Part shown: positions 3,100 through 42,499 of the stretch, piece after piece | How the letters are laid out: every line of letters begins with the position of its first letter | How positions within the stretch are numbered: the first letter of the stretch is position 1 | Source of the DNA: a bacterium | GTDB lineage: Bacteria > Patescibacteriota > Microgenomatia > Levybacterales > UBA12049 | Assembly (NCBI GenBank): GCA_021784535.1 | Contig: JAJYHW010000085.1 | Location: 1 to 44,119, forward strand | Direction: 5' to 3' | Length of the DNA: 44,119 bases | The notes under the pieces: model-generated | Databases searched by the model: none | Told to the model about the DNA's origin: nothing | What the model saw: only the letters and a program-made list of their open reading frames with translations | Program-made: the position numbers and the translations under genes

Positions 3100-3239
3100 G
3101 GACCGATTTTACAATTGAAGATGGAAATCACGGTGAAAATCCGTGGCTGTGCCGCAACTGTAAAGCCAGAAAACTTTTTTTCCCGCGCAGGAGCTTTTTT
3201 TAAGAATCCTTCTGTTTTGCGGAGCAAGAGAAGGATTTT
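3100..3239 (+). promoter_or_regulatory. Cobalamin (AdoCbl-type) riboswitch RS1, short form without a long P6 extension
   Basis: GGAAAT, then a 5-bp stem CACGG/CCGTG (3129-3145) closing a TGAAAAT loop, then GCTGTGCCGCAACTGTAAAGCCAGA. This matches the conserved GGUGAnAAUCC...GCxGxxCCGCAACUGUAA core and B12-box region. Downstream, a 9-bp hairpin (3205-3213 / 3229-3237) buries the GAAGGA Shine-Dalgarno of the ATG at 3240. Confidence 0.75.
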
Positions 3240-3599
3240 ATGAATAAAAAAGTACTCGCCATAGTCATCATTATCATTATTTTTGCTCTTTCAGCGCTTG
3301 GCGTTAGTGAGATTAAGACATTCTCCCATTCTATCCCCAATCCAACAGCTACTCCTGTCTCACAACAGACTACACTTGTGTACAAAGGCATTAATGGAAA
3401 AGATGCTTTAACGCTTCTTAAAGAACATGCGGCTGTCGAACAGGATCATTCAGGATTGGTCATTGGTATCAATGGTAACAAGCCGACAGGGCATCATTAT
3501 TGGGCGTTTTATGTTAATGGCAAGATGAGCCAGGTGGGACCGGCTGAGTATCAGACAAAAAACAGCGATATAATCGAGTGGAAAATAGAGAAATATTAA
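3240..3599 (+). CDS. DUF4430-like secreted or anchored protein (transcobalamin beta-domain-like, probable B12 binder)
   Basis: N-terminal signal/TM segment (VLAIVIIIIIFALSALG). The C-terminal pattern HYWAFYVNG...GPAEY...DIIEWK is typical of DUF4430. It is the first gene after RS1. Confidence 0.7.
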   Translation: MNKKVLAIVIIIIIFALSALGVSEIKTFSHSIPNPTATPVSQQTTLVYKGINGKDALTLLKEHAAVEQDHSGLVIGINGNKPTGHHYWAFYVNGKMSQVGPAEYQTKNSDIIEWKIEKY

Positions 3600-3616
3600 A
3601 AAGTTTAAAGTTCAAA

Positions 3617-4186
3617 ATGAAAAATTCAAAATTACAAATAAAAGTGCAAAATATTATTAGTCCTTTTATAATCATTGCGTTTGCAATTATTTTGAGGTTG
3701 GTCCCGCACCCTCCTAACGTTGCGCCGATTGCAGCAATGGCACTTTTCGGCGGCGTGTACCTCAATAAAAAATACGCACTTATTGTCCCGATTATTGCTC
3801 TGTTTGTTTCAGATATCTTTTTGGGATTTTATTCTGAAATGATATTTGTTTATGGCAGTTTTCTTCTTACCGGATTGATAGGTCTCTGGCTTCGAAATCA
3901 TAAATCCTTCAGAAATGTCATTCTGGCAAGTAGTGGTTCTTCTATCATGTTTTTCCTTATCACCAATTTTGGTGTGTGGCTTATGAGTTCAATGTATGAT
4001 AAAACATTCAATGGCTTGCTGGAATCGTACGCGATGGGGTTACCGTTTTTTAGAAATACGCTGCTTGGAGATCTTGGATACGTCGGATTATTCTTCGGGA
4101 GCTACGAGCTCTTGTCATTATTTATCTTAAATCGTAAAACGCAAATATCAAAACTACATCTCAAATCTAAACATTTTAAGATTTGA
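3617..4186 (+). CDS. Six-TM membrane protein, ECF S-component-like; probable cobalamin transporter subunit
   Basis: About 6 hydrophobic helices. The RLVPHPPNVAPIAAMALFGG motif resembles solitary S-component/DUF6580-type proteins. The ATG at 3617 was chosen over 3578, which overlaps the upstream gene by 22 nt. The function is inferred from operon context only. Confidence 0.6.
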   Translation: MKNSKLQIKVQNIISPFIIIAFAIILRLVPHPPNVAPIAAMALFGGVYLNKKYALIVPIIALFVSDIFLGFYSEMIFVYGSFLLTGLIGLWLRNHKSFRNVILASSGSSIMFFLITNFGVWLMSSMYDKTFNGLLESYAMGLPFFRNTLLGDLGYVGLFFGSYELLSLFILNRKTQISKLHLKSKHFKI

Positions 4187-4223
4187 ATTGTCGGTTTATG
4201 ATTTGAATTTTGAGTTTTGAGAT
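4158..4223. repeat. Heptamer-built imperfect hairpin element
   Basis: Left arm ATCTCAAATCTAAACATT (4158-4175) pairs with AATTTTGAGTTTTGAGAT (4206-4223) at about 14 of 18 positions. The arms are phased 7-mers (GAATTTT/GAGTTTT/GAGATTC). The left arm encodes the last residues of the upstream ORF. Confidence 0.55.
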
Positions 4224-4229
4224 TCTACT

Positions 4230-4769
4230 ATGCCGATTTATACCCGTACTGGCGATAAAGGGAAAACGTCACTTTTTGACGGCACCCGTGTGTTGAAATC
4301 ACACAAGCGCGTTGAGACATATGGAACAATTGATGAGCTTAATAGTATTATTGGTGCTACCGTTGCCCATTTGAAAAATAATGAGAAGCAATTGAAAGTT
4401 GAATTGGAAAAGATTCAAAATGATCTTTTGGATATCGGCTCAGCGCTTGCAACGCCTCATCCGATGCCGGTTATTGGTTTGGAAAATCGTCCAAAAGAGT
4501 TTGAGAAATGTATTGATAATCTCACGCAAAAATTGCCGGAATTAAATGAATTTATTTTACCCGGTGGTGGCAAAGCAGGCTCATTCTTGCATGTCTGCCG
4601 AACGATTGCCAGGCGAGCTGAGCGGCAGCTGGTTGCATTGACACAGAAAGAAAAAGTAGATGAGGCAATTGTTATTTATCTCAATCGCTTGTCAGATCTG
4701 TTATTTACTATGGCGCGATATGTGAATTATATGGAGAAGAAGAAAGAGATTAAGTGGGTAAAGCGATAG
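4230..4769 (+). CDS. pduO: PduO-type ATP:cob(I)alamin adenosyltransferase
   Basis: N-terminus MPIYTRTGDKGKTSLFDG...ETYGTIDELNS and the later RRAER segment are characteristic of PduO-type ATR. 179 aa. Confidence 0.9.
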   Translation: MPIYTRTGDKGKTSLFDGTRVLKSHKRVETYGTIDELNSIIGATVAHLKNNEKQLKVELEKIQNDLLDIGSALATPHPMPVIGLENRPKEFEKCIDNLTQKLPELNEFILPGGGKAGSFLHVCRTIARRAERQLVALTQKEKVDEAIVIYLNRLSDLLFTMARYVNYMEKKKEIKWVKR

Positions 4770-4847
4770 ATGTAAGATGTAGGATTTAAGATGTAGACGT
4801 GAAATATAAAAAATCTTCTTAAATCTTACATCATAAATCTTAAATCT
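4770..4847. repeat. Heptamer-built hairpin element (ATGTAAG family)
   Basis: Left arm ATGTAAG ATGTAGG ATTTAAG ATGTAGA; right arm TAAATCT TACATCA TAAATCT TAAATCT. Positions 4776-4791 pair with 4817-4832 (16 bp including one G-T). It starts 1 nt after the pduO stop. Confidence 0.7.
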
Positions 4848-4854
4848 AATATTT

Positions 4855-4989
4855 TGGGTGAACTTAGTGAAATTCTAAGGCTGTGCCGCAACTGTAAAGC
4901 CAGATCCCCATCCCGATTAATTCGGGGAAAAACCTTCCGAGCAGAAGTTCCTTTTTTTGTGGACTCCTCGGATGACGAGGAGTTTTTTT
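4855..4989 (+). promoter_or_regulatory. Cobalamin riboswitch-like element RS2 with terminator / anti-SD expression platform
   Basis: GGGTGAA, then a 5-bp stem CTTAG/CTAAG (4863-4879) closing a TGAAATT loop, then a 26-nt core (4879-4904) identical to RS1 3145-3170. Downstream is an 8-bp hairpin ACTCCTCG/CGAGGAGT (4963-4983) followed by a T7 run. The 3' arm carries GAGGAG 7 nt before the ATG at 4990. Confidence 0.6.
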
Positions 4990-6687
4990 ATGGCAAGATT
5001 AGAATTTGCACCAACACCAACACCAAGATCAAGAATAGGCAGGCAAGTAGGCAATGCAGAAGTATCACCGGTAATCCAGCCGAGAAGACTTGCTGTTTCG
5101 GAGCTTATACAGCAAGGTGTGTCTCAAGCTATTGGAAATATTGATGCCGTACTTGCGGAGTTTGCAGAGAATCAAAGAGAAAATCAGAAGAAGCCTAGCA
5201 TGCCTGAATCAGTATCTGTGTATAATCCATCCAAGCGTAGTCAGACAGAGTTTCTTAACCAGAGAATGCCTGTTTCTGTTTTTGAACAATCATCACAGGA
5301 AGATTGCATACGTGCAAAAGAAAGACTTTCTCCGACAAGTAGTACGCGGGAGTATATAGATTTTTTTGATAGATTTTATGAAGAGGAAGGTCTTCCAAAG
5401 GATTGGTACAAACTTCAGTATGGAGACGCTCAGGTAGGGTTCAGTATGAAAAAACAAATGGAACGTTTGAGAGATGACTCTTTTGCAGGAAGAAAGATAT
5501 GGGCTCGGCAAGCATTTGGCGATTTACAGGGATATCTGATTGAATATGTTTCTCCCTATAATGTTTTCCCCTGGACGCATGTTGTGAGGGAAACTTCTGA
5601 TGGAACAGCACATCTGGTTGATCCAAAATATGGAGGTAGACGTATGATTGATTTAGTCACAAATGACGAAAGAGATGGAGCTGTCACCTCTGTAATGAAA
5701 GCAATAGATCAGGCCGTTGTGACAGGGAAAAAGCCTGATGGGAGTGCGTTGTCTAATGGAAGTATGTTTTTGGAAGTAAGTCCTTCGGATGCTTCAGCAA
5801 CAGGTTTGAAACAGGACAATGGTAAGGATATTAAGTATAAAGATACACATATTAAAATATCTCAAGTGGTAGGAGATAAATTAGTAGGATTTACCATACA
5901 AACAGATTTCACCAAGACAGAATGCCGTGAGCTGCTCTATAGAGTTTCCGGGAAAATGCTCCCAGAGGATGCGCCAGTTGAAGATTATATAAGATCATTT
6001 GCTATTATTGATCCTACCGCAAGTGATCTGAAAAGCATTGGAGATATGGTCGGAGTTGCTGCCAAGGTCCGTTCGGATATGTCTTTTGGATCAAAAAATG
6101 CGTATAAAGATAAAACATGGGATCAAGTCCTTGAACAGATAAGCCGAGGGGATACATTATATGAATGGACGAAGACATCCCAGGCTATCCTGAAAAAGTT
6201 TGTATACGATGTGCTTTATGATAATCCGTCGAAAGATGAATTACCTCGCTATCTGTCAGCGACTATTCTAACTGCAGTTCAGGCAGCGCAGATGGATCAA
6301 TTGGCTGTGGCAGCTGAGAAGGCAGCTACAGAACAGCTTCATCTTATACTCCCACCATCCAATTTTGGTAATTTTGGAGAAGTTTTGAAGGCTACTGCCG
6401 CAATTGTCGGATGCGCAGGCGGAGGATCAGCATCTTCAGATGGTGGAATATTTGGAAGAAATCGTTCAGGACAAGTCGGAGGATTAACTGGTGAATCATG
6501 CCCTCAAATATCATGTGCCTGCGGCTGGGAGGCGAGTGATGCTGAAGTTGCATCAATTCAAGCAAAAATGCTCACACATTGTCCGAAATGTGGTGCAGAA
6601 CCTGGGAAAGGAGAAGCAAGGGGAAAGAGGGAAAAAGAAGAGGTACAGACGCCAATAGATAAGAAAAAGTTTGCATTAGCAGCATAA
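4990..6687 (+). CDS. Hypothetical 565-aa protein with C-terminal CxC...CPxCG zinc ribbon; no family recognised
   Basis: Long clean ORF. The ATG at 4990 was chosen because the TTG at 4957 lies inside the terminator hairpin. No signal peptide, TM segment or P-loop. C-terminus is CACGWEASDAEVASIQAKMLTHCPKCGAEPG. Confidence 0.7.
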   Translation: MARLEFAPTPTPRSRIGRQVGNAEVSPVIQPRRLAVSELIQQGVSQAIGNIDAVLAEFAENQRENQKKPSMPESVSVYNPSKRSQTEFLNQRMPVSVFEQSSQEDCIRAKERLSPTSSTREYIDFFDRFYEEEGLPKDWYKLQYGDAQVGFSMKKQMERLRDDSFAGRKIWARQAFGDLQGYLIEYVSPYNVFPWTHVVRETSDGTAHLVDPKYGGRRMIDLVTNDERDGAVTSVMKAIDQAVVTGKKPDGSALSNGSMFLEVSPSDASATGLKQDNGKDIKYKDTHIKISQVVGDKLVGFTIQTDFTKTECRELLYRVSGKMLPEDAPVEDYIRSFAIIDPTASDLKSIGDMVGVAAKVRSDMSFGSKNAYKDKTWDQVLEQISRGDTLYEWTKTSQAILKKFVYDVLYDNPSKDELPRYLSATILTAVQAAQMDQLAVAAEKAATEQLHLILPPSNFGNFGEVLKATAAIVGCAGGGSASSDGGIFGRNRSGQVGGLTGESCPQISCACGWEASDAEVASIQAKMLTHCPKCGAEPGKGEARGKREKEEVQTPIDKKKFALAA

Positions 6688-15036: not shown

Positions 15037-16002
15037 ATGTTCTCTCGGCAAAAAATTATTGTTTTCCAAAAACATATTCTTGATTGGTACCATGAAAATC
15101 AGCGCCCTCTCCCATGGCGTAAAACCCGGGACCCCTATTGTATTCTCATATCAGAAGTTATGTCTCAGCAGACGCAGCTTTCTCGTGTCATTCCAAAATA
15201 TGAAGCATGGATTAAGAAATTTTCAACTGTGCAAAGTTTGGCAAAAGCAAAAGTATCGGAAGTGTTGGCATATTGGAGTGGACTCGGTTATAACAGGCGA
15301 GCGCTTAATTTGCAAAAAGCTGCTCAGAAAATTGCGCAGGAATATAAAGGGGCTTTTCCACGAACAGAAAAAGAACTTATTGCACTACCTGGGATAGGAA
15401 AATACACAGCGCGGGCGATTCTTTGTTTTGCATTTGATCAACAAGTGGCTGTTGTGGATACCAATGTGAAGAAGGTGATACTGACACAATTAATTAAAAA
15501 CTCGAATGCCGAAGCACGAAATCCTAAACAAATTCGAAATAATAATTGTCAAAGAACAAAACATGTAGAATTTGGAATATTGAAAAATTCAGAAATTATT
15601 TCGAATTTTGGATTTCGAATTTTGGATTTGCCCAAAAACGATGAAACGGAGAGGACGGATTTAAGTGATAAAGAGATAAATGAGATCGCCCAACAACTGC
15701 TTCCAGCAGACAAAGCGTATGAATGGAATCAGGCGCTTATGGATTATGCAGCAACAGTATTGAAGAAAGAAAAAATTCCAATTCCTAAGCAATCAAAATT
15801 TCATGGATCCCATCGGTATTATCGTGGGCAAGTGTTAAAAGTATTATTACAGAAGAAAAAAATTTTGGTAAAGGGTTTGGGTCCATTAATAAAAAAGGAT
15901 TATACAGATTCAGAGGAAGAGTGGCTTCAGCAATTGATAGATGAATTGGTGCATGAAGGATTTGTTAAATATGAAAAAACCATTATTACCCTCGCTTCTT
16001 AA
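15037..16002 (+). CDS. HhH-GPD DNA glycosylase, MutY/EndoIII-like, without the 4Fe-4S cysteine loop and carrying an in-frame repeat insertion
   Basis: WYHENQRPLPWR, LISEVMSQQTQ, GLGYNRRA, LPGIGKYTA and VVDTNV all match the MutY N-terminal domain. The region after NQALMDY contains no cysteine. Confidence 0.8.
   Translation: MFSRQKIIVFQKHILDWYHENQRPLPWRKTRDPYCILISEVMSQQTQLSRVIPKYEAWIKKFSTVQSLAKAKVSEVLAYWSGLGYNRRALNLQKAAQKIAQEYKGAFPRTEKELIALPGIGKYTARAILCFAFDQQVAVVDTNVKKVILTQLIKNSNAEARNPKQIRNNNCQRTKHVEFGILKNSEIISNFGFRILDLPKNDETERTDLSDKEINEIAQQLLPADKAYEWNQALMDYAATVLKKEKIPIPKQSKFHGSHRYYRGQVLKVLLQKKKILVKGLGPLIKKDYTDSEEEWLQQLIDELVHEGFVKYEKTIITLAS
15517..15630. repeat. 114-nt palindromic heptamer element inserted in frame in the glycosylase gene
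   Basis: 15530-15543 pairs with 15595-15608 (14 bp) and 15517-15524 pairs with 15610-15617 (8 bp), with a 51-nt loop. The right arm contains ATTTCGAATTTTGG twice. The element starts on a codon boundary and is 38 codons long. Confidence 0.75.
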
Positions 16003-24950: not shown

Positions 24951-25568
24951 ATGGAGGAGAAGAAGATATGTAGGAAATGCGGGAGGGTTCTTGAAATGCG
25001 CCGGACCAAACGTACTGCGGAGCAATCGCAAAAGCACTATTATTACACAGCATACTATTATTGTCCTCATTGCAATAAGTTATATCATGATGAAAAATTC
25101 AAAGTAATCAATGTGCAGACTGCTCCACTCCATTTTGGCTCTCTCTCTACAGATCCTAGCAGCTATGATGTAGAGATCTGGACTGATGGAGCATGTGTCG
25201 CAAATGGTACGTCTCGTGCAAAAGCAGCCTGGGCATTTGTCAGTGGTGAAACTGAAAGAGCAGATCGCGTAGAGGGTAAGCAGACAAACAATGTCGCTGA
25301 GGGATTGGCGATTTACCATGCCTTATCGTGGGCAGCTGAGAAAGGATACAAACGGATTTTACTCCATACAGACAGTCAGATTTCATTGTATAGCGTAAGA
25401 AAACCCGCAAATAAAGTGCGTGCGAATCGTGAGATATTTGAAAATATTGAAAAGGTGATTGCGGAGAATAAATTGCTTGTGGATTACAAGAAAGTGCTTG
25501 GTCATTCAGGCGATCCCAATAATGAGCGTGCCGATTCGCTGGCAAATGGATTGGCGGTGAAGGGTTGA
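24951..25568 (+). CDS. rnhA: Ribonuclease HI with an N-terminal zinc ribbon
   Basis: CRKCG...CPHCN, then WTDGAC, NNVAEGLA, HTDSQ and NERADSLA (DEDD catalytic residues). Confidence 0.88.
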   Translation: MEEKKICRKCGRVLEMRRTKRTAEQSQKHYYYTAYYYCPHCNKLYHDEKFKVINVQTAPLHFGSLSTDPSSYDVEIWTDGACVANGTSRAKAAWAFVSGETERADRVEGKQTNNVAEGLAIYHALSWAAEKGYKRILLHTDSQISLYSVRKPANKVRANREIFENIEKVIAENKLLVDYKKVLGHSGDPNNERADSLANGLAVKG

Positions 25569-25662: not shown

Positions 25663-26076
25663 ATGATCGCGGTTTCCTCGCTATTGCTAAAACTTCTTCC
25701 CACCCAAATAGCCTATGCTCATTGCGACCTTCCTTGTGGTGTCTATGATCCTGCTCAAGCGAGAATAGAGGCGGAAAGCGTCATGAAAATCATGGAGAAA
25801 TACGCAGGTCTTCATGAAGAAGAACAAAAATGGCGAGCAGTCTTCATCAAGGAGCAACGGGCAGAACTAGTCAAACACCATCTTTGGGTTTTGTGGACTG
25901 ATTATTTCAAGCCGGAGCATCTGGAGAAATTTCCGCACTTGCATGATCTTTTCTGGCGTGCAACCAAACAAGCAGGAGAGGCGAAAAAATCTGTTGATCC
26001 GGCCGTGGGTCAAAAACTGCTTGATCTTATTGATGAAATAGATAAAATTTTTAAAGAAACAAAGGCCACAAAGTAA
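25663..26076 (+). CDS. sodN: Nickel superoxide dismutase precursor
   Basis: A 19-aa leader followed by the Ni-hook HCDLPCGVYDPAQARIEAESV. 137 aa. Confidence 0.92.
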   Translation: MIAVSSLLLKLLPTQIAYAHCDLPCGVYDPAQARIEAESVMKIMEKYAGLHEEEQKWRAVFIKEQRAELVKHHLWVLWTDYFKPEHLEKFPHLHDLFWRATKQAGEAKKSVDPAVGQKLLDLIDEIDKIFKETKATK

Positions 26077-26080
26077 TTTA

Positions 26081-26170
26081 CAATTTTCATTTCTCAATTT
26101 TCAATCAAATCAACAATGATGTAATTTTAAAACTTTGAGAAATTGAAAATTTATTAAAAATTGAAAATTT
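26081..26170. repeat. Heptamer-built hairpin element (AATTTYC family)
   Basis: Left arm AATTTTC ATTTCTC AATTTTC AATCAAA; right arm GAGAAAT TGAAAAT ...ATTGAAAATT. 26082-26097 pairs with 26135-26151 (16 bp with one bulge). Confidence 0.7.
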
Positions 26171-26174
26171 AAAA

Positions 26175-26501
26175 ATGTTTCAACAATTATTTCTTCTCCT
26201 CTCCCCTATTTATAAATATCAGATTTTCGGAAGTAGTATGCTGCCGACATTAAAGCCAGGAGATATGGTATTGGTAAATAGAATGAGCTATTTGTTTTTA
26301 TCACCAAAAATCAATGATATTGTCGCGGTTAAAGATCCACGGGAAGGCAAAGTACTGATAAAGCGGATTATGAAGATTGAAGGGAAGAGCTATTTTGTGC
26401 AAGGAGACAATAAAAACGCAAGCACAGATAGCAGGGTTTTTGGTATGATAGGAAGGATTAATATTATTGGGAAAGTTACTGATGTAAAATTTCCAATTTA
26501 A
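26175..26501 (+). CDS. sodX: S26-family signal-peptidase-like protease, NiSOD maturation protease
   Basis: GSSMLPTLKPGD (Ser), LIKRI (Lys) and GDNKNASTDSR. It lies immediately downstream of sodN. Confidence 0.85.
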   Translation: MFQQLFLLLSPIYKYQIFGSSMLPTLKPGDMVLVNRMSYLFLSPKINDIVAVKDPREGKVLIKRIMKIEGKSYFVQGDNKNASTDSRVFGMIGRINIIGKVTDVKFPI

Positions 26502-26597
26502 AATTTTCAATTTTCAATCAAGTCATAATGTTTCAATTTTTTAACATTAGATTATTGGAAATTCAATGAAAATTAGAAATTAAGAATTGAAAATTGT
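26486..26597. repeat. Heptamer-built hairpin element (AATTTYC family)
   Basis: AATTTCC AATTTAA AATTTTC AATTTTC AATCAAG ... GGAAATT CAATGAA AATTAGA AATTAAG AATTGAA AATTG, with an inner 7-bp stem TAATGTT/AACATTA. The left arm supplies the last codons (KFPI) and the stop of sodX. Confidence 0.7.
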
Positions 26598-26600
26598 TCT

Positions 26601-27128
26601 ATGCTTGTCTTAATTCTTATCTTACTTATTCTTGTTATTTTGTTATTTCTTTTGTCGATGCTTTGGCCGCCGGATAGTCCCTGGTCTCCATGGTGGCGAA
26701 CAACGCCAACGCTTGCGCGGCTTGAATGTAAGCTTGCGAAGATTAAAAAAGGAGATATTATTTATGATTTGGGATCAGGTGAAGGAACGGCACTTATCAT
26801 CGCGGCAAAGGAATTTGGTGCAACCGGTGTGGGTATAGAGATTGATCCATTCCGTGCCTGGTATGCCAAGCTTGCCGTTTGGCTAGCTGGAGTTGCGGAC
26901 AAGGTAATAATCAGAAGGGAAAATTTTTTTACTGTTGATATCTCAAAGGCTACAGTTGTTTTTCTCTATTTGACACCGAGAGCTCTTGTCGGTCTTCGTG
27001 AGAAGTTTTTCAAAGAATTGCGGCCAGGTACTCGCGTGGTTACATTTGTCTATCAGATGGATTTGCCTTTGTATGCCAAAGATGACAAGGCAGAAATGTA
27101 CGTCTACGAGATACCAAAGCGAAAGTAA
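26601..27128 (+). CDS. Class I SAM-dependent methyltransferase with an N-terminal TM segment
   Basis: IYDLGSGEGTALI (motif I) and GVGIEIDP. 175 aa. Confidence 0.75.
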   Translation: MLVLILILLILVILLFLLSMLWPPDSPWSPWWRTTPTLARLECKLAKIKKGDIIYDLGSGEGTALIIAAKEFGATGVGIEIDPFRAWYAKLAVWLAGVADKVIIRRENFFTVDISKATVVFLYLTPRALVGLREKFFKELRPGTRVVTFVYQMDLPLYAKDDKAEMYVYEIPKRK

Positions 27129-27260: not shown

Positions 27261-28328
27261 TTATTTTTTCATCCTCAAATACAACCATCTCAGTTTATCT
27301 GCTACTTTGTAGCCTTGATACGCAAGGGGATTGATGACAAGATCATAACTGCCGATGAACTCGACATGTTCGGGGCCGAATTTCCTTTTAAAATCATGAA
27401 AGCCAAACCACGAATCTTTTGGGTCAGGCTCAGAACTCATCGCTCCCCACATGTCAAATTTTTTTAAGCCCAGTTTTTTTCCGAATCGGATACCCTCCCA
27501 CATGGCCAGATTTGAATGCATGACATTGCGATGCTCGTTGCTGGATGCGCCGTAGGGATAATACAAGGTGTCATGAAAGACAAAAAAAAGCAGCGCAGTC
27601 AGCACTTTTTTTTCATAAGTTGCCGTGAACAGGTGTGAGGTAAGTTTGCTGGGGTCGACATCATGTGAGAATGTATGCCATTGCAGTTCGTGATAGTGTC
27701 TGGTGTGAGCATAAAATTTTTGACGTGCTGTTGTCTCTTGCATCAGGCGCCAATATGCTTCAAATGCTTTTTCCGTGTTGTCTTCCTTGACTTCTACAGC
27801 ATGTTTTTTGGCAACTTTGATATTGTAACGTGCTTTCGGGTGCATGCGAGTCAGCAATTCATCTTCAGATTTTGTGAGATCCAGGACAAAGGTATATTTG
27901 GTAAAGAGTGGATGCGCGGCTGGAGGTAATTTCCAATTTCCGATTTCCAGTTTCCAATTTATTATTTTCCTGCTTCCTGCTTCCTGTTTGCTGTTTCTAA
28001 AGACATTTGGTTCCAGTTGAATGAAGATGCAGTTCTCCTGTTTGCCAATTTTATATAATTCATTTATCAATTGCTCATCAGGCATCGTTCCTTTTGGTAG
28101 ATAACCGATGGTAAAATCGGTCTTTGGCAATTTGTGAATGGTGAGTTGAAATCCTGAAATGAGTTTTAGTCCTGAGCTCGTCGAAGGATTTTCATCAAAA
28201 AAACCACTTCGGATTACCTTGATTCCTTCTTTCTCGCGGAATTCTCCCCATTCATAACTTTGGAGAGGATGAGTGACAATAGCGTTATATGCTATTTTTT
28301 GCTTGGAAGTAATAGGCCGGATGTCCAT
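27261..28328 (-). CDS. FemAB/FemX-family peptidoglycan interpeptide-bridge aminoacyltransferase
   Basis: Length and conserved blocks fit the family (QSYEWGEF, KARYNIKVAKK, YYPYGASS, LKKFDMWG). The ATG at 28328 is 6 nt downstream of TAGAAT. Confidence 0.8.
   Translation of the reverse strand: MDIRPITSKQKIAYNAIVTHPLQSYEWGEFREKEGIKVIRSGFFDENPSTSSGLKLISGFQLTIHKLPKTDFTIGYLPKGTMPDEQLINELYKIGKQENCIFIQLEPNVFRNSKQEAGSRKIINWKLEIGNWKLPPAAHPLFTKYTFVLDLTKSEDELLTRMHPKARYNIKVAKKHAVEVKEDNTEKAFEAYWRLMQETTARQKFYAHTRHYHELQWHTFSHDVDPSKLTSHLFTATYEKKVLTALLFFVFHDTLYYPYGASSNEHRNVMHSNLAMWEGIRFGKKLGLKKFDMWGAMSSEPDPKDSWFGFHDFKRKFGPEHVEFIGSYDLVINPLAYQGYKVADKLRWLYLRMKK
27928..27998. repeat. Pyrimidine-strand heptamer tract inside femX
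   Basis: AATTTCC AATTTCC GATTTCC AGTTTCC AATTTAT followed by ATTTTCC TGCTTCC TGCTTCC TGTTTGC TGTTTCT. It is translated on the minus strand as SKQEAGSRKIINWKLEIGNWKL. Confidence 0.7.
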
Positions 28329-28360
28329 CACTTTATTCTATCAGATTCACCTTATTATTT

Positions 28361-30266: not shown

Positions 30267-30357
30267 TAGATGTATGATGTAAGATTTATGATTTAAGAAA
30301 AGAAGTGAGGAATTATTGTTTAATAATTTATATCTTACATCTTAAATCTTATATCTT
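30267..30357. repeat. Heptamer-built hairpin element (ATGTAAG/AAGATTT family)
   Basis: Left arm TAGATGT ATGATGT AAGATTT ATGATTT; right arm ATATCTT ACATCTT AAATCTT ATATCTT. 30276-30286 pairs with 30332-30342. An inner stem AATTATT/AATAATT is also present. Confidence 0.65.
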
Positions 30358-30387
30358 AAGACAACACCCATTGTAGCATATTGCCAT

Positions 30388-31092
30388 ATGAAAAAACTTT
30401 TTATTGTCGGGAATTGGAAATCAAATAAAACAATTGCGGAAGCAAAAACATGGCTTCTTGAAATTTCCAATTTCCAATTTCCAATTTCTGATAAACGGGA
30501 AATTATCATTTGTCCGCCATTTTTGCTTATTCCTGAGATGAAAACGTTTATTGATGAGTACAAACTTCCCCTTAAGCTTGGCGTGCAGAATATTTCTCCG
30601 TTTGGCGAAGGAGCATATACCGGTGAGGTATCTGCCAGGACAGCGCAGGAATTTGTCACTCATGCATTAGTCGGACACTCGGAACGGAGACACTATTTTC
30701 ATGAGACCGATGAAGATGTCCTGGCAAAAATAAAACAGCTTTTGCGCTATGATTTAACTCCTGTTTTGTGTATCAGCGACATGAAACAATTGGCTTTTTA
30801 TTTAAAAGAAGATGATGTGATTACTGCCAATGCAGGGAAGATTATTTTTGTCTACGAACCGCCAGATGCGATCAGCGGCGGCGGAGCGTTTCATGCGATA
30901 GATTTAGATACTATTGATGCAAATACTGCTGAGATCAGTAAAATGATAGGCAAAGAAGTAGTTACTCTTTATGGCGGAAGTGTCAATCCAGAAAATGCTG
31001 CGTTGATTTTTGGCTTAGAACACGTTTCTGGAGGTCTACCCGGACAGGCAAGTTTGGATGCTGAAACATTTGCACAAATAATTCATGGATAA
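30388..31092 (+). CDS. tpiA: Triosephosphate isomerase
   Basis: GNWKSN, VGHSERR, YEPPDAI and YGGSV. Confidence 0.92.
   Translation: MKKLFIVGNWKSNKTIAEAKTWLLEISNFQFPISDKREIIICPPFLLIPEMKTFIDEYKLPLKLGVQNISPFGEGAYTGEVSARTAQEFVTHALVGHSERRHYFHETDEDVLAKIKQLLRYDLTPVLCISDMKQLAFYLKEDDVITANAGKIIFVYEPPDAISGGGAFHAIDLDTIDANTAEISKMIGKEVVTLYGGSVNPENAALIFGLEHVSGGLPGQASLDAETFAQIIHG
30462..30489. repeat. AATTTCC x3 plus AATTTCT tandem heptamers inside tpiA
   Basis: Perfectly phased 7-mers, translated as EISNFQFPIS in the loop after the GNWK strand. Confidence 0.75.
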
Positions 31093-41153: not shown

Positions 41154-41222
41154 AATACAAAATGACAAATTGCCAATACGAAATCATTTAGTATTTAGCA
41201 TTGGTCATTTAGTATTGATTTA
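41154..41222. repeat. Heptamer-built imperfect hairpin straddling a gene boundary
   Basis: Left arm ATACAAA ATGACAA ATTGCCA ATACGAA; right arm TTAGTAT TTAGCAT TGGTCAT TTAGTAT. About 17 of 23 positions are complementary. Confidence 0.6.
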
Positions 41223-42499
41223 CTTAGCAACCGTGCTGCTTTTTCACCTAATTCGACTGCATAATTTGTTCCCCTGTCCCAGGGATAGACCTGTTCAATG
41301 TTGGCAAGAAATACATTAGAGAGCGGCGTTGTCATAGCTGGAATTATACGCGAATAATTGATTGGAATGATCGGCTGAGCAAAAGGAACGGTGAATTTTT
41401 TTAACCCGATAAGATTTTTTTTATAATCCGGGTTTAATTTTTTGAGAAAGGGATCAAAAGTTTTCAATAGCGCTTCTTCGCTCAAAGTGAAATACGGGTG
41501 ATCATGTGGTAAATAGTGACCAAGATAGACAAGGTGCTCATTATTATAATGTTCACTCTTTATAAAATTGGTATGCTCGACAATTGCCAGAAGCGGTGCT
41601 TTGGTGTCGCAAATGCTGAGCCAATAGGTATTATCGGTTAAAAAAGGTTTCTTAAGCCGCATGATTACCACAATAGCTCCGAGCCCTTTAAGATTCAGTA
41701 GTGATTTTTTGTATGGTTCAGGAAGTTGTGGTGCGAGTTTCAAAAACGCAAAAGACGGGAGCGTAACAATAGCTTTATCGTAATTTCCGATTTCCAATTT
41801 CAAATTCCCAATTTTTCTGTATTTGATCTGAGGTTTATTGTTTGAGGAGATCTCGGTTATTTCAGTATTATAATAAATTTTTCCTCCTTTTGCTTCGATA
41901 ATACGAGCGAGATGGTTGGTAAATCTTAAAAAGCCTCCTTCCGGATAAGCAAGACGGGTTGTTCTTTTGGCAATGCGTCCCCAGAACCATGCGAGAGAAA
42001 TGTTTTCTGCATCTGCTCCGAATTTGCCAACGAGCAGCGGTTTCCATAGTAGCTCATACGCTTTTTTGCCAACTGTTTTTTTTAAGTATGCTGCTGTGGT
42101 AAAGCCCTCAAGTGGTTTCCAGAAAGGATTAAAGCGAAGCGGGGTAAGAGCGAGCGCCATCTGTATTCTTTCAAATACGGAAAGTTTCTGAAACGTCAAT
42201 AATGTGAACGGAGAGTCCATTTGATAAATTTTGCCATCTATCAAGTGGGATGTTTTGGGTCTTGTAATAATAACCGGGAAATCCAGTTCTTTTGCAAGAG
42301 CCAACACTGTTTTATCACTGGTAAACCAATGATGATAAAATGCCTCCAGCGTCCAGTCCCAACCAGTTTCCTGATAGCCAATTGCCAGGCCGCCGGGTTG
42401 TGTATCTTTTTCAAAGAGAGTGACGTCGTGCCCGTCTTTGACTAATTGATATGCCGCGGAAAGCCCGGTAAAGCCGGCTCCGATAATTGCTACTCTCAT
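41195..42499 (-). CDS. NAD(P)/FAD-dependent oxidoreductase (HemY/CrtI/amine-oxidase-like fold)
   Basis: MRVAIIGAGFTGLSAAYQL...LFEKDTQPGGLA dinucleotide-binding motif. 434 aa. Confidence 0.8.
   Translation of the reverse strand: MRVAIIGAGFTGLSAAYQLVKDGHDVTLFEKDTQPGGLAIGYQETGWDWTLEAFYHHWFTSDKTVLALAKELDFPVIITRPKTSHLIDGKIYQMDSPFTLLTFQKLSVFERIQMALALTPLRFNPFWKPLEGFTTAAYLKKTVGKKAYELLWKPLLVGKFGADAENISLAWFWGRIAKRTTRLAYPEGGFLRFTNHLARIIEAKGGKIYYNTEITEISSNNKPQIKYRKIGNLKLEIGNYDKAIVTLPSFAFLKLAPQLPEPYKKSLLNLKGLGAIVVIMRLKKPFLTDNTYWLSICDTKAPLLAIVEHTNFIKSEHYNNEHLVYLGHYLPHDHPYFTLSEEALLKTFDPFLKKLNPDYKKNLIGLKKFTVPFAQPIIPINYSRIIPAMTTPLSNVFLANIEQVYPWDRGTNYAVELGEKAARLLSKSILNDQC
41782..41816. repeat. AATTTCC-family heptamer tract inside the oxidoreductase gene
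   Basis: AATTTCC GATTTCC AATTTCA AATTCCC AATTTTT, translated on the minus strand as KIGNLKLEIGNY. Confidence 0.7.

What the first reader, a model, noticed from the sequence alone, without database searches (positions are those of the whole stretch)
27928..27998. The same AATTTCC heptamer tract is embedded in three unrelated conserved genes and yields near-identical peptide motifs
Seen: femX (27928-27998) is translated as ...NWKLEIGNWKL.... The FAD oxidoreductase (41782-41816) is translated as ...IGNLKLEIGNY.... tpiA (30462-30489, opposite coding orientation) is translated as ...EISNFQFPIS.... The sodX tail (26488-26515) also uses it. All are phased (A/G)ATTTCC units on the + strand. In femX a second tract (TGCTTCC x2, TGTTTGC, TGTTTCT) follows, and the two tracts are not complementary, so this copy is not a hairpin. 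In tpiA the tract does not lengthen the loop relative to other TIMs (about 26 residues between NKT and the PP strand, from memory). The repeat therefore appears to have overwritten a variable loop rather than been inserted. Inference: a slippage-prone or recombinogenic repeat colonises variable loops of essential genes. Three heptamers equal 21 nt, which keeps the frame. Copy-number change by a non-multiple of 3 units would frameshift, giving a potential phase-variation switch.
Basis: partly seen in the sequence, partly recalled or inferred. Interest (0 to 1): 0.65.

Follow-up and report, generated by a model that had tools for sequence, protein, structure and literature searches.

The report
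In-frame heptamer repeats in housekeeping genes
Short runs of a 7-base repeat sit in frame inside surface loops of essential genes of this uncultured Levybacteria-like (candidate phyla radiation) bacterium and many relatives, behaving as tolerated simple-sequence DNA that becomes loop peptide rather than as an on/off switch.

Summary
(A/G)ATTTCC heptamer arrays lie in femX, tpiA, an FAD oxidoreductase and the sodX tail, far above dinucleotide- and codon-shuffled expectation. The shared peptides are arithmetic: 7 and 3 are coprime, so any frame reads the same cyclic heptapeptide.

The tracts belong to a lineage-wide class of heptanucleotide microsatellites in Microgenomates-like genomes.
- About 80% lie inside genes.
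- In genes they almost always have 4-5 copies; intergenic arrays vary more and often form inverted pairs (hairpins).
- The same loops of FemX, TIM and the oxidoreductase carry such arrays in many lineages, with different units.
- One FemX loop exists in two lengths, 14 or 21 residues, a step of three heptamers.
- Perfect (GGAAATT)4.9 arrays are identical across genomes whose FemX is only about 62-66% identical.
- The window's own femX copy has decayed by synonymous changes only.

Phase variation is not supported. Five same-species assemblies and two other strain pairs show no copy-number change, and the genes are essential.

Best reading: slippage or conversion in 7-nt register, filtered by frame, stop codons and loop tolerance. 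This is a new variant of known heptamer repeats (Xanthomonas, Nostoc).

The parts
27928..27960 (-). Heptamer array 2 in femX. The coding strand reads AAATTGG AAACTGG AAATCGG AAATTGG AAATT and encodes NWKLEIGNWKL (FemX residues 124-134). It is an interrupted ('dead') copy of the (GGAAATT)4.9 array that is perfect in relatives.
   Evidence: Its 3 differences from the perfect array are all synonymous.
27967..27997 (-). Heptamer array 1 in femX. The coding strand reads AAACAGC AAACAGG AAGCAGG AAGCAGG and encodes NSKQEAGSRK (residues 111-121). Relatives carry AAGAATC, AGGAATC or TAAGAAT arrays at the same position.
   Evidence: AlphaFold pLDDT is below 50 for residues 113-124.
27261..28331 (-). femX-like gene of the FemAB family (lipid II:glycine glycyltransferase-like), intact.
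   Evidence: Pfam PF02388/PF13480. Matches PDB 6SNR and 1LRZ.
30462..30488 (+). Perfect (AATTTCC)x3.9 array in tpiA encoding EISNFQFPIS (residues 25-34, from the end of helix 1 to the loop before strand 2). It is length-neutral.
30388..31092 (+). Triosephosphate isomerase gene, intact. The catalytic N9, K11, H97 and E157 are among the invariant columns.
41782..41814 (-). Degenerate GGAAATT-type array (76% matches) in the FAD/NAD(P) oxidoreductase gene, encoding IGNLKLEIGNY (residues 230-240).
41195..42499 (-). FAD-dependent oxidoreductase gene of the amino-oxidase / protoporphyrinogen-oxidase-like family.
   Evidence: Pfam PF01593, PF13450 and PF01266.
26485..26518 (+). AATTTCC/AATTTTC array forming the left arm of an intergenic inverted pair. 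The sodX-like S26 peptidase ORF (26175-26501) runs into it and stops at a TAA inside it, giving the tail ...VKFPI.
26567..26596 (+). Right arm (GAAAATT-type units), inverted with respect to 26485-26518.
   Evidence: pairing is predicted, z -1.4.
26075..26170 (+). Inverted pair of AATTTTC / GAAAATT heptamer arms between sodN and sodX, of the same family as 26485-26596.
4768..4847 (+). Intergenic hairpin whose arms are heptamer arrays, (AGATGTA)n ... (TCTTACA/TCTTAAA)n. It lies just upstream of an AdoCbl-II riboswitch match.
   Evidence: (z -4.2).
30268..30358 (+). Intergenic hairpin of the same AGATGTA/TACATCT family, between the divergent uvrD and tpiA genes.
   Evidence: z -3.1.
15598..15629 (+). 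(ATTTCGA ATTTTGG)x2.3 array in heptamer register, 100% perfect. It lies in frame in an HhH-GPD DNA glycosylase gene, C-terminal to the domain (residues 188-198, ISNFGFRILDL).
41186..41216 (.). Weak ATTTAGT array spanning the junction between the oxidoreductase gene and the downstream PMT_2-like gene.
4175..4221 (.). TTTGAGT / 20-nt periodic tract between ORF 3578-4186 and the cobalamin adenosyltransferase gene.

Best explanation
The AATTTCC/GGAAATT tracts are heptanucleotide microsatellites. This simple-sequence class is strongly over-produced in some Microgenomates (Levybacteria-like) lineages.

Inferred mechanism:
- Strand slippage and mis-registered repair in a 7-nt register amplify a local 1-2-copy seed, or homogenise a quasi-periodic stretch without changing its length.
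- Selection then removes everything except arrays that keep the frame, avoid stop codons in all three phases, and fall in surface loops that tolerate new residues. Keeping the frame means a net change of 0 or 21 nt, which is why genic arrays sit at 4-5 copies.
- While an array stays perfect it is kept homogeneous at the DNA level. Once interrupted it 'dies' and evolves as ordinary coding sequence, and its peptide is retained as loop.
- In intergenic DNA the same arrays occur with freer copy number, often as inverted pairs that form hairpins.

Shown: the arrays, their enrichment, their location, the copy-number quantisation, the recurrence at the same loops, the DNA-level conservation and the absence of polymorphism.

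Inferred: the slippage/conversion mechanism and the selective filter.
For: Period 7 alone is enriched.
- Window: 7 runs against 0.15 expected; inside CDS 4 against 0.045 under codon permutation.
- TRF score >=46: 42 period-7 arrays in 696 kb of Microgenomates-like loci against 1 in 1151 kb of other bacteria fetched with the same query.
- Density is patchy between sister lineages. The window, L171, L099 and L173 are rich; L001-L004 and L170 have none, and L167 has only one weak array.

Location and copy number:
- 71 of 88 arrays lie in long stop-free frames.
- Genic arrays have 4-5 copies in 66 of 71 cases, intergenic arrays in 10 of 17 with a range of 3-8 (Fisher p=0.0014).
- Perfect runs are bimodal, with a gap between about 2.4 and 4.3 copies.

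Length steps and seeds:
- FemX loop 2 is 14 aa (53 of 70) or 21 aa (7 of 70).
- L171 is +7 aa relative to three sisters.
- L174 has a 1.5-copy AGGAATCAGGA where L173 has 3.9 copies and L172 has 4.4.
- In L081 the one unit whose TAA would fall in frame reads CAA.

Hot spots:
- FemX loop 1 carries arrays with at least 12 different units in at least 17 of 35 orthologues.
- Runs of 7-aa periodicity in homologue sets: FemX 32 against 3-11 at other offsets; TIM 9 against 0-4; oxidoreductase 23 against 2-13 (of those 23, 10 lie in the array loop and 11 in an unrelated conserved LKKFDPFLKK motif near residue 340). In FemX and TIM most lie in the same loops, the rest in conserved non-array motifs.

Maintenance and decay:
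- Same-amino-acid codons are identical 9 of 9 inside perfect arrays against 38-55% elsewhere.
- The window's femX array carries 3 changes, all synonymous (P about 0.003).
- Many 'array-less' loops look like decayed arrays.

Structure:
- The arrays map to a low-confidence loop (pLDDT below 50 at residues 113-124).
- Coding arrays are unstructured as RNA.

Literature: heptamers are the most abundant long simple-sequence-repeat class in many prokaryotes, and polymerase slippage was proposed as the cause (Mrazek 2007, as summarised in PMC4679880). Heptamer arrays in Xanthomonas and Nostoc prefer four units and form inverted pairs (PMC4692102).
Against: - The tpiA array replaced a loop with a net change of -1 aa. 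Simple expansion cannot do this. It needs length-neutral conversion or a compensating deletion, and neither was observed.
- The five perfect (GGAAATT) arrays all have the same 4.9 copies, and no copy-number polymorphism was seen anywhere. Ongoing slippage was therefore not demonstrated.
- A few units recur across genes, lineages and even phyla. GGAAATT accounts for 11 of 88 arrays. An (AATTTCC)5 array occurs in a 68%-GC phage contig. The unit resembles Xanthomonas GGGAATC (PMC4692102). This hints at sequence preference beyond generic slippage.
- Why the register is 7 nt is unexplained.
- The intergenic arms in the window also cluster near 4.4 copies, although no frame constraint applies to them.
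Confidence: 0.55

Rival explanations
1. Ectopic templated copying, or a tiny mobile unit. Arrays of about 30 nt are copied from one array to another site in the same genome, by template switching or short-patch gene conversion, or by an unknown element. The copy overwrites a loop segment of similar length.
For: - The same unit and the same strand occur in four places within 15 kb of the window, three of them within 4 kb.
- L171 likewise has ATTTTCC/AATTTCC-type arrays on one strand at the sodX tail, femX loop 2 and tpiA.
- The replacement in tpiA is length-neutral.
- Array size is characteristic, about 30-36 nt.
- Whole inverted pairs can sit in frame in genes, as in L007 uvrD, where they add about 11-12 aa per array.
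- The same FemX loop also collects REP-like palindromes in frame.
Against: - There are dozens of different units, with no conserved termini, target duplications or flanks.
- L174, L173 and L172 show 1.5, 3.9 and 4.4 copies of one unit in situ.
- The 14-versus-21-aa two-state loop fits expansion by 3 units rather than import of a fixed element.
- Synonymous divergence resumes immediately outside the perfect arrays.
Confidence: 0.2
2. The arrays are functional nucleic-acid elements, or products of a dedicated sequence-specific process. For example they could be platforms for a protein that reads 7-nt steps on RNA or DNA, or weak two-tetrad G-quadruplexes. Selection would then maintain them in the DNA or RNA rather than in the peptide.
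For: - Five genomes with only about 62-66% FemX identity share an identical perfect 34-nt array, including its synonymous sites, and conservation stops at the array edges.
- Intergenic inverted pairs are kept in position between the window and L171 at the sodX tail.
- GGAAATT/AATTTCC arrays also occur in a 68%-GC phage contig.
- The four-unit preference and inverted pairs match Xanthomonas GGGAATC repeats, which were interpreted as G-quadruplexes (PMC4692102).
- Cold-shock domains bind one heptamer each (discussed in PMC4679880).
Against: - Unit sequences are very diverse and many contain no G on either strand.
- Arrays are absent from equally close sisters L167 and L170 with no replacement.
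- The window's femX array decays at synonymous sites while its peptide is kept.
- Arrays are confined to tolerant loops, as expected for passengers.
- Coding arrays have no predicted structure.
- No Rfam family matches them.
Confidence: 0.12
3. Phase-variable contingency loci. Copy-number changes of one or two heptamers toggle the reading frame of femX, tpiA and the oxidoreductase.
For: The unit length is not a multiple of 3, and the arrays lie inside ORFs.
Against: - No indel occurs in any array among five same-species assemblies or in strain pairs L105/L106 and L123/L124.
- The genes are single-copy housekeeping genes (TIM, FemAB).
- The arrays are short (3.9-4.7 units) and two of the three are interrupted.
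- The tpiA array is retained across species-level divergence.
- Across relatives only in-frame states are seen.
Confidence: 0.03
4. Chance or codon-usage by-product of an A+T-rich genome that encodes Asn/Lys/Ile/Phe-rich loops.
For: GGAAATT and AATTTCC consist of common codons and are stop-free on both strands (sequence inspection).
Against: - Codon permutation gives 0.225 pattern hits against 9 observed, and 0.045 period-7 runs against 4.
- Dinucleotide shuffles give 0.19 against 9.
- Other periods are not enriched.
- A+T-rich Clostridia loci lack such arrays.
Confidence: 0.01

Closest known systems
Heptameric simple-sequence repeats of Xanthomonas (GGGAATC) and Nostoc PCC 7120 (GGGGAYT) (Rehm et al. 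2015, PMC4692102), and the general excess of heptanucleotide long SSRs in prokaryotes (Mrazek et al. 2007, as cited in PMC4679880 and PMC4692102)
   Same: - Tandem 7-nt units with genome-wide over-representation of period 7 only.
- A clear preference for about four units.
- Frequent convergent inverted pairs in intergenic DNA.
- Position usually preserved between related genomes while length and sequence drift.
- A favoured unit of similar form (GGAAATT/GGAAATC/AGGAATC here, GGGAATC there).
   Different: [quoted passage not shown]
- Here the units are A+T-rich and very diverse.
- About 80% lie in frame inside genes, including housekeeping genes.
- Genic copy number is quantised.
- The host is a CPR/Microgenomates lineage, for which I found no report.
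Cyanobacterial STRR heptamers (Calothrix/Nostoc; cited as ref. 39 in PMC4692102; details from my own knowledge) and TAACTGA direct repeats of Beggiatoaceae and cyanobacteria (MacGregor 2015, PMC4679880)
   Same: - Short tandem heptamer arrays of 2-6 copies scattered through a genome.
- Function unknown.
- The TAACTGA paper makes the same point that translation of a heptamer repeat gives a 7-aa repeat, and that stop codons restrict which orientation can enter genes.
   Different: - One or a few fixed units per genome.
- Mostly intergenic, upstream of start codons.
- No recurrent occupation of the same protein loops was reported.
Rickettsia palindromic elements (RPE; Ogata et al. 2000, own knowledge; mentioned in PMC1166351, PMC2229807 and others listed)
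   Same: - Repetitive DNA that persists in frame inside conserved, functional protein-coding genes.
- It sits at surface positions compatible with the fold and becomes part of the protein.
   Different: - RPEs are 100-150-bp palindromic mobile elements with conserved sequence, and they always add length.
- The coding arrays here are about 30-nt direct repeats without palindromy. They have many units and are sometimes length-neutral.
- True REP-like palindromes do occur in the same FemX loop of relatives, but not in the window.
Simple-sequence contingency loci of Haemophilus, Neisseria and Campylobacter (for example the 7-bp repeats upstream of hmw1A; PMC8262952)
   Same: A repeat whose unit is not a multiple of 3, in or near a gene. 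In principle it could shift the frame.
   Different: Contingency loci are long, polymorphic and lie in surface or restriction-modification genes. Here the arrays are short, non-polymorphic in the available data and lie in essential genes.
Cryptic simplicity / slippage-driven evolution of coding sequence (Tautz, Trick and Dover 1986; Levinson and Gutman 1987; own knowledge)
   Same: Slippage-like processes create and homogenise short motifs within genes, and generate new peptide segments in tolerant regions.
   Different: Described mainly for eukaryotes and for triplet or mixed motifs. A strict 7-nt register with a 3-unit quantum in bacterial housekeeping genes is not the classical picture.

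Membership tests
Phase-variable simple-sequence contingency locus | Repeat copy number is polymorphic between and within strains | tested here: not met
   Five same-species assemblies, L105/L106 and L123/L124 have no indel in any array. Consensus assemblies cannot exclude rare variants.
Phase-variable simple-sequence contingency locus | Unit length is not a multiple of 3, and the repeat lies in an ORF or promoter | tested here: met
   7-nt units lie inside the femX, tpiA and oxidoreductase ORFs.
Phase-variable simple-sequence contingency locus | Affected genes are dispensable surface, modification or host-interaction genes | tested here: not met
   The genes are TIM (PF00121), FemAB (PF02388), an HhH-GPD glycosylase and an FAD oxidoreductase.
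Phase-variable simple-sequence contingency locus | Long uninterrupted tract that gives high slippage rates | tested here: not met
   The tracts have 3.9-4.7 units. The femX array is 84% matching and the oxidoreductase array 76%.
Heptanucleotide long-SSR class (Mrazek 2007; Rehm 2015; STRR) | Tandem direct repeats with a 7-nt unit, and period 7 specifically over-represented | tested here: met
Heptanucleotide long-SSR class (Mrazek 2007; Rehm 2015; STRR) | Preference for about four units | tested here: met
   66 of 71 genic arrays have 4-5 copies, and perfect arrays are 30-36 nt. Compare PMC4692102.
Heptanucleotide long-SSR class (Mrazek 2007; Rehm 2015; STRR) | Inverted (convergent) pairs in intergenic regions | tested here: met
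   Pairs at 4768-4847, 30268-30358, 26075-26170 and 26485-26596. The first two fold with z -4.2 and -3.1.
Heptanucleotide long-SSR class (Mrazek 2007; Rehm 2015; STRR) | Under-representation in coding regions | tested here: not met
   71 of 88 arrays lie inside long stop-free frames. The window has 5 arrays in 4 genes, plus the sodX tail.
Heptanucleotide long-SSR class (Mrazek 2007; Rehm 2015; STRR) | G-tracts able to form a G-quadruplex (Xanthomonas/Nostoc subclass) | tested here: not met
   Units carry GG at most, and many have no G at all (AATTTCA, CAATTCA, AAATCTC).
RPE-like in-frame selfish palindromic element / MITE | Sits in frame in conserved genes at structurally tolerant sites | tested here: met
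   Intact ORFs. The FemX arrays lie in a loop with pLDDT below 50. The TIM array lies at the helix 1-strand 2 loop.
RPE-like in-frame selfish palindromic element / MITE | Palindromic or terminal-inverted-repeat structure | tested here: not met
   Coding arrays fold no better than shuffles (z +1.66, +0.97, -0.11).
RPE-like in-frame selfish palindromic element / MITE | Family of near-identical copies with conserved ends, and insertion that adds length | tested here: not met
   There are many unrelated units and no conserved flanks. The tpiA array is length-neutral.
DNA uptake sequence-like molecular drive | One specific oligomer vastly over-represented genome-wide and recognised by the uptake machinery | not testable with these tools
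   Only 44 kb plus fragments are available. Unit diversity argues against it.

The most novel reading that the evidence does not exclude
Some Microgenomates lineages may have an active, partly sequence-selective DNA process that writes and maintains arrays of about 33 nt in strict 7-nt register. GGAAATT-like units would be favoured, and these resemble the unexplained heptamer repeats of Xanthomonas, Nostoc and a high-GC phage. The process would act even inside essential genes and sometimes without changing length. If so, it would be a dedicated generator of new loop peptides and of hairpin-forming intergenic elements, not generic polymerase slippage.
Probability: 0.15. Interest if true: 0.8.

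Novelty: new variant of a known kind. Interest (0 to 1): 0.55.

Why it matters
- Repeats whose unit is not a multiple of 3 are normally purged from bacterial genes, or are used as frameshift switches. Here a whole radiation of ultra-small bacteria tolerates them in frame in core enzymes.
- The same loops are re-used again and again, and the repeat-encoded peptides are later kept as ordinary protein sequence. This is a clean natural example of de novo loop sequence born from simple-sequence DNA.
- Every base of a heptamer unit is read in all three codon phases. This, together with homogenisation, could explain why perfect arrays stay identical across very divergent genomes.
- The data also give a comparative handle on the 30-year-old question of what makes and maintains heptamer repeats (STRR, and the Xanthomonas/Nostoc repeats), and why about four units are preferred.
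- In practice, such tracts should not be annotated as phase-variable loci or treated as assembly errors.

Tried and rejected
- Hairpin or terminator reading of the coding tracts: rejected. They fold no better than shuffles.
- Known RNA families: only two AdoCbl-II riboswitch matches elsewhere in the window.
- The source genome is not among the GTDB representatives scanned; the best hit has 75% UvrD identity. The metagenome scan also found no same-species contig. The exact-protein look-up did find five, but they are nearly clonal, so power to see polymorphism is limited.
- No homologue above 77% identity exists for TIM, FemX or the oxidoreductase apart from the window's own cluster. Intermediate-distance strains could therefore not be examined.
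- G-quadruplex reading: rejected as a general explanation, because most units lack G-runs.
- Programmed -1 frameshifting: AAATTTC fits the X XXY YYZ slippery pattern, but GGAAATT and most other units do not, and no downstream structure is present. Dropped.
- A diversity-generating retroelement or reverse-transcriptase origin: nothing in the window supports it. The gene at 24951-25568 has a strong RNase H match (PF00075) and only a weak RVT_3 match, so it is RNase H rather than a reverse transcriptase.
- The +7-aa insertion near the FemX N-terminus of the window (about 28160-28190) was checked for heptamer periodicity and has none.
- 'Array-less loops are cryptic arrays at the DNA level': not seen in the loci, where no residual period 7 was found. 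At the protein level, however, many loops do look like decayed arrays.
- Mrazek et al. 2007 could not be read because it is not held. It is cited only through PMC4679880 and PMC4692102.
- Literature searches for heptamer or tandem repeats in CPR/Patescibacteria found nothing relevant.
Full report
1. OBSERVATION

- TRF reports AATTTCC x4.7 at 27928-27960, x3.9 (100% perfect) at 30462-30488 and x4.7 at 41782-41814.
- A related AATTTCC/AATTTTC tract lies at 26485-26518.
- All are in (A/G)ATTTCC phase on the + strand.

The ORFs are intact and translate as stated.
- A FemAB-family gene (27261-28331, - strand) reads ...INWKLEIGNWKLPP....
- tpiA (30388-31092, + strand) reads ...LEISNFQFPIS....
- An FAD oxidoreductase (41195-42499, - strand) reads ...KIGNLKLEIGNY....
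- The S26 peptidase next to Ni-SOD ('sodX', 26175-26501) ends ...VKFPI*, with its stop codon inside the tract.

Gene identities rest on Pfam hits and on PDB matches.

The second femX tract (27967-27997, TTCCTGC x4.4) is real and is not complementary to the first (fold z = +1.66).

The tracts are not chance.
- The two-unit pattern gives 9 hits against 0.19 expected from dinucleotide shuffles and 0.225 after permuting codons within genes.
- Period-7 runs number 7 against 0.15 expected. No other period is enriched except 14 and 21.
- One of the 9 hits (30409-30422) is just the catalytic GNWK motif of TIM.

The 'near-identical peptides' carry no extra information. Because 7 and 3 are coprime, any frame of (GGAAATT)n reads cyclic GNWKLEI and any frame of (AATTTCC)n reads NFQFPIS.

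2. WHAT ELSE IS IN THE WINDOW

The window holds many more heptamer arrays with other units.

Four intergenic elements are inverted pairs whose two arms are heptamer arrays:
- 4768-4847 and 30268-30358, both (AGATGTA)n...(TCTTACA)n;
- 26075-26170 and 26485-26596, both (AATTTTC)n...(GAAAATT)n.

The first two fold significantly (z -4.2 and -3.1), whereas the coding arrays are unstructured. The sodX tail is simply the left arm of one such pair.

A fifth genic array, (ATTTCGA ATTTTGG)x2.3, lies in frame in an HhH-GPD glycosylase gene (15598-15629). Rfam matches none of these elements.

3. ORGANISM AND RELATIVES

The window is from a Levybacteria-like member of the Microgenomates (CPR). Its nearest genome loci have 74-75% UvrD identity and keep the femX-uvrD-tpiA synteny.

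An exact-protein look-up found five contigs of the same species from five samples. They are 99.8-99.995% identical over up to 21 kb, and there is not one indel in any array. Two other close strain pairs in the data, L105/L106 and L123/L124, likewise show no array length change.

4. A LINEAGE-WIDE CLASS

- At TRF score >=46 there are 42 period-7 arrays in 696 kb of Microgenomates-like loci, against 1 in 1151 kb of other bacteria retrieved by the same query.
- Density is patchy. The window, L171, L099, L109 and L173 are rich. Sisters as close as L170 have none, L167 has only one weak array, and L001-L004 have none.
- Of 88 arrays, 71 lie inside long stop-free frames.
- Genic arrays have 4-5 copies in 66 of 71 cases. 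Intergenic arrays have 4-5 copies in 10 of 17 and range from 3 to 8 (Fisher p = 0.0014).
- Perfect period-7 runs are bimodal, with a decaying background and a second mode at 30-36 nt.

5. THE SAME LOOPS, AGAIN AND AGAIN

FemX loop 1 lies between LEPN and HPLFT.
- It carries a 4-5-copy array in at least 17 of 35 orthologues, with at least a dozen different units: AAATTGG, AATTTCA, CAATTCA, TAAGAAT, CATGATT, AAATCTC, GGTCAAT, AAGATCA and others.
- Among the 120 closest FemX homologues, runs of 7-residue periodicity number 32, against 3-11 at offsets 5, 6, 8 and 9. Twenty-five of the 32 lie in loop 1 or in a second loop near residue 220; the other seven are conserved non-array motifs such as KLRWFYLKLR.
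- Many loops without a clear array look like decayed arrays, for example TETNSQLLTTNYQLRK and SINGKSMENGRWKMGNL.

The TIM loop and the oxidoreductase loop show the same behaviour.
- TIM: ISNLKSQISNL, ANGEWQIANG.
- Oxidoreductase: IGNWKLEIGN, MANGKWQMAN, IRNLKFEIRN.
- Offset-7 excess: 9 against 0-4 for TIM. For the oxidoreductase it is 23 against 2-13, of which 10 lie in this loop and 11 in an unrelated conserved LKKFDPFLKK motif near residue 340.

AlphaFold2 places the window's two femX arrays (residues 111-121 and 124-134) in the only internal segment with pLDDT below 50, residues 113-124, and in its neighbour. The overall model has pLDDT 86.

The same FemX loop in relatives also holds in-frame REP-like palindromes (RHSGEE..SRIDSGQARMT, VIPAKAGIHGSP). 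It is therefore a generally permissive site.

6. INSERTED OR OVERWRITTEN?

Both occur.

tpiA is length-neutral.
- The closest array-less TIMs (70-76% identity) read WLEKFKELNPQFSPEEKE where the window reads WLLEISNFQFPISDKRE. The window is one residue shorter.
- It is two residues longer than Thermus TIM 1YYA; the alignment places a 2-residue gap in 1YYA.
- Array-bearing and array-less TIM loops share the 16-19-residue range.

FemX loop 2 shows a quantum step.
- It exists in two states, 14 aa (53 of 70) or 21 aa (7 of 70, four of them with an obvious 7-aa repeat).
- L171 carries (AAAATGG)x4.7 there and is exactly +7 aa relative to the window, L167 and L170.

The window's double array in loop 1 makes that loop about 10 aa longer than in L170 or L081.

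A seed is visible. L174 has 1.5 copies (AGGAATCAGGA) where L173 has 3.9 and L172 has 4.4.

Stop avoidance is visible too. In L081 the one TAAGAAT unit whose TAA would be in frame reads CAAGAAT.

7. LIVE AND DEAD ARRAYS

- L172, L173, L174, L086 and L097 all carry a perfect (AAATTGG)x4.7-4.9 array of 33-34 nt in FemX loop 1. Their FemX proteins are only 62-66% identical pairwise (84% for L173/L174).
- Codons for identical residues are the same in 9 of 9 array positions between L172 and either L173 or L174, against 38-55% elsewhere in the gene. Synonymous differences resume immediately after the array.
- The window's own copy differs from that perfect array at three positions (TTG>CTG, ATT>ATC, TTG>TTA). 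All three are synonymous; P is about 0.003 if changes were unselected.
- The tpiA array, perfect in the window, differs in L171 by three synonymous changes and one replacement. A more decayed version sits at the same place in L002.

Perfect arrays are therefore held uniform at the DNA level. Interrupted arrays evolve like ordinary coding sequence whose peptide is under purifying selection.

One point follows from the arithmetic. In a homogenised heptamer array every base is a first, second and third codon position in different copies. No unit-level change is therefore silent. This could explain the conservation, provided some intra-array conversion operates. That last step is inference.

8. 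MECHANISM (INFERENCE)

The best-supported reading is heptanucleotide microsatellite dynamics.
- Slippage and mis-registered repair in a 7-nt register amplify local seeds or homogenise quasi-periodic stretches.
- Selection then passes only arrays that keep the frame (a net change of 0 or 21 nt, hence seed + 3 units = 4-5 copies), are stop-free, and lie in tolerant loops.

This matches three things:
- the published view that heptamers are the dominant long-SSR class in many prokaryotes, possibly because of polymerase geometry (Mrazek 2007, via PMC4679880);
- the four-unit preference in Xanthomonas and Nostoc heptamer repeats (PMC4692102);
- the inverted pairs in the same repeats (PMC4692102).

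Weak points:
- length-neutral replacement in tpiA;
- identical copy number, and no polymorphism, in 'live' arrays;
- a few favoured units (GGAAATT is 11 of 88 arrays) that recur even in a 68%-GC phage contig;
- intergenic arms that also cluster near 4.4 copies.

These weak points keep two rivals alive: ectopic templated copying, and a dedicated or functional element. Phase variation and chance are effectively excluded.

9. COMPARISON WITH KNOWN SYSTEMS, AND NOVELTY

The closest known kind is the heptameric SSR class of Xanthomonas, Nostoc and the cyanobacterial STRR.
- All structural criteria are met: 7-nt unit, period-specific excess, about four units, inverted pairs.
- The defining distributional feature, under-representation in genes, is reversed here.
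- The G-quadruplex property is absent.

Functionally the genic arrays behave like Rickettsia palindromic elements, as repetitive DNA living in frame in surface loops. They fail the structural criteria for that family. They also fail three of four criteria for contingency loci.

I found no report of this phenomenon in CPR/Patescibacteria, within the limits of the held library. I therefore rate it a new variant of a known kind, of moderate interest. It is a reproducible, lineage-wide, quantised invasion of essential genes by non-triplet repeats, with an unexplained DNA-level maintenance.

Noticed in passing
L002:6994-7131; L167 and L171 FemX loop 1; also L102, and P0126, P0130, P0136, P0180, P0185, P0197, P0222, P0235: A double-hairpin element of about 40-75 nt sits in frame in the same FemX loop in several lineages. 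Its sequence is CGTCATTCTGG...CCAGAATCGATTCTGGACAAGCCAGAATGAC, translated RHSGEE..SRIDSGQARMT. Other REP-like palindromes (VIPAKAGIHGSP, LPAGKAGI, ILHFVQDD) occur in the same loop, and one of them interrupts a GGAAATT array in P0238.
   Followed up: partly
L166 (IMGVR_UViG_3300017987_003406), e.g. 3823-3868, 4993-5042, 5574-5629, 6048-6131: A 68%-GC phage contig (lambda-type portal, capsid, S49 protease, DNA methylase) carries many heptamer arrays. Several clearly lie between genes; 3823-3868 falls inside a long stop-free frame upstream of the methylase domain. They include A+T-rich (AATTTCC)5-7 and inverted pairs such as (CCAATGA)n...(TCATTGG)n. The same unit as in the window thus occurs in a compositionally very different genome.
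   Followed up: partly
window 3123-3174 and 4843-4918 (+): Two AdoCbl-II (cobalamin) riboswitch matches above Rfam gathering score. One lies directly downstream of the heptamer-arm hairpin at 4768-4847 and upstream of ORF 4957-6687. A cobalamin adenosyltransferase gene lies at 4230-4769.
   Followed up: no
window 26975-27081 versus L163: All 21 differences (19 substitutions and 2 single-base gaps) between contig L163 and the window cluster in about 100 bp at the 3' end of ORF 26601-27128. This is also the end of that contig. It may be a strain-variable or recombinant patch, or a contig-end artefact.
   Followed up: no
window about 28160-28190 (FemX residues about 46-53): The window's FemX has a 7-residue insertion (NPSTSSG) that is absent from all sisters. 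It has no heptamer periodicity but contains a short inverted repeat (TCCT..GAGCTC..AGGA).
   Followed up: partly
L001 (OZ246394.1), L003, L009: Records titled 'uncultured Gammaproteobacteria bacterium' are syntenic with, and 51-75% identical in UvrD to, Levybacteria/Microgenomates loci. The record titles look mis-assigned.
   Followed up: no
tpiA of the window compared with L001-L005 and P0002-P0120: The window's TIM belongs to a subfamily with an SGGGAFH insertion and an ISDMKQL..YLKEDD segment. It is 70-76% identical to many metagenomic TIMs but only 36-42% identical to the TIMs of L001-L005, the syntenic loci closest by UvrD identity; syntenic L007 carries the same subfamily TIM (SGGGEF) at 43%, and L167/L170/L171, also syntenic and closer still by UvrD (80-84%), carry TIMs 72-75% identical. 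Two TIM types or very uneven rates exist within this clade.
   Followed up: no
L099:7431-8132 (- strand) and 3973-6360 (+ strand): A single TIM gene in L099 carries three separate heptamer arrays (TTTGAGC x7.1, TTGAAAA x4.3, GATTTAT x3.9). A DUF2298 gene in the same locus carries three more (ATTTGGA x2, AAATCAC), all perfect or nearly so.
   Followed up: partly
units GGTCAAT/AATGGTC (L096, L101, L125), AAACAGG (window 27967-27997), TTGGTCA (L166): Several units differ by one base from the classical cyanobacterial STRR heptamers (TTGGTCA, CAACAGT, recalled from memory). AGGAATC in L173 is one base from Xanthomonas GGGAATC. This may be coincidence or a shared sequence preference.
   Followed up: no
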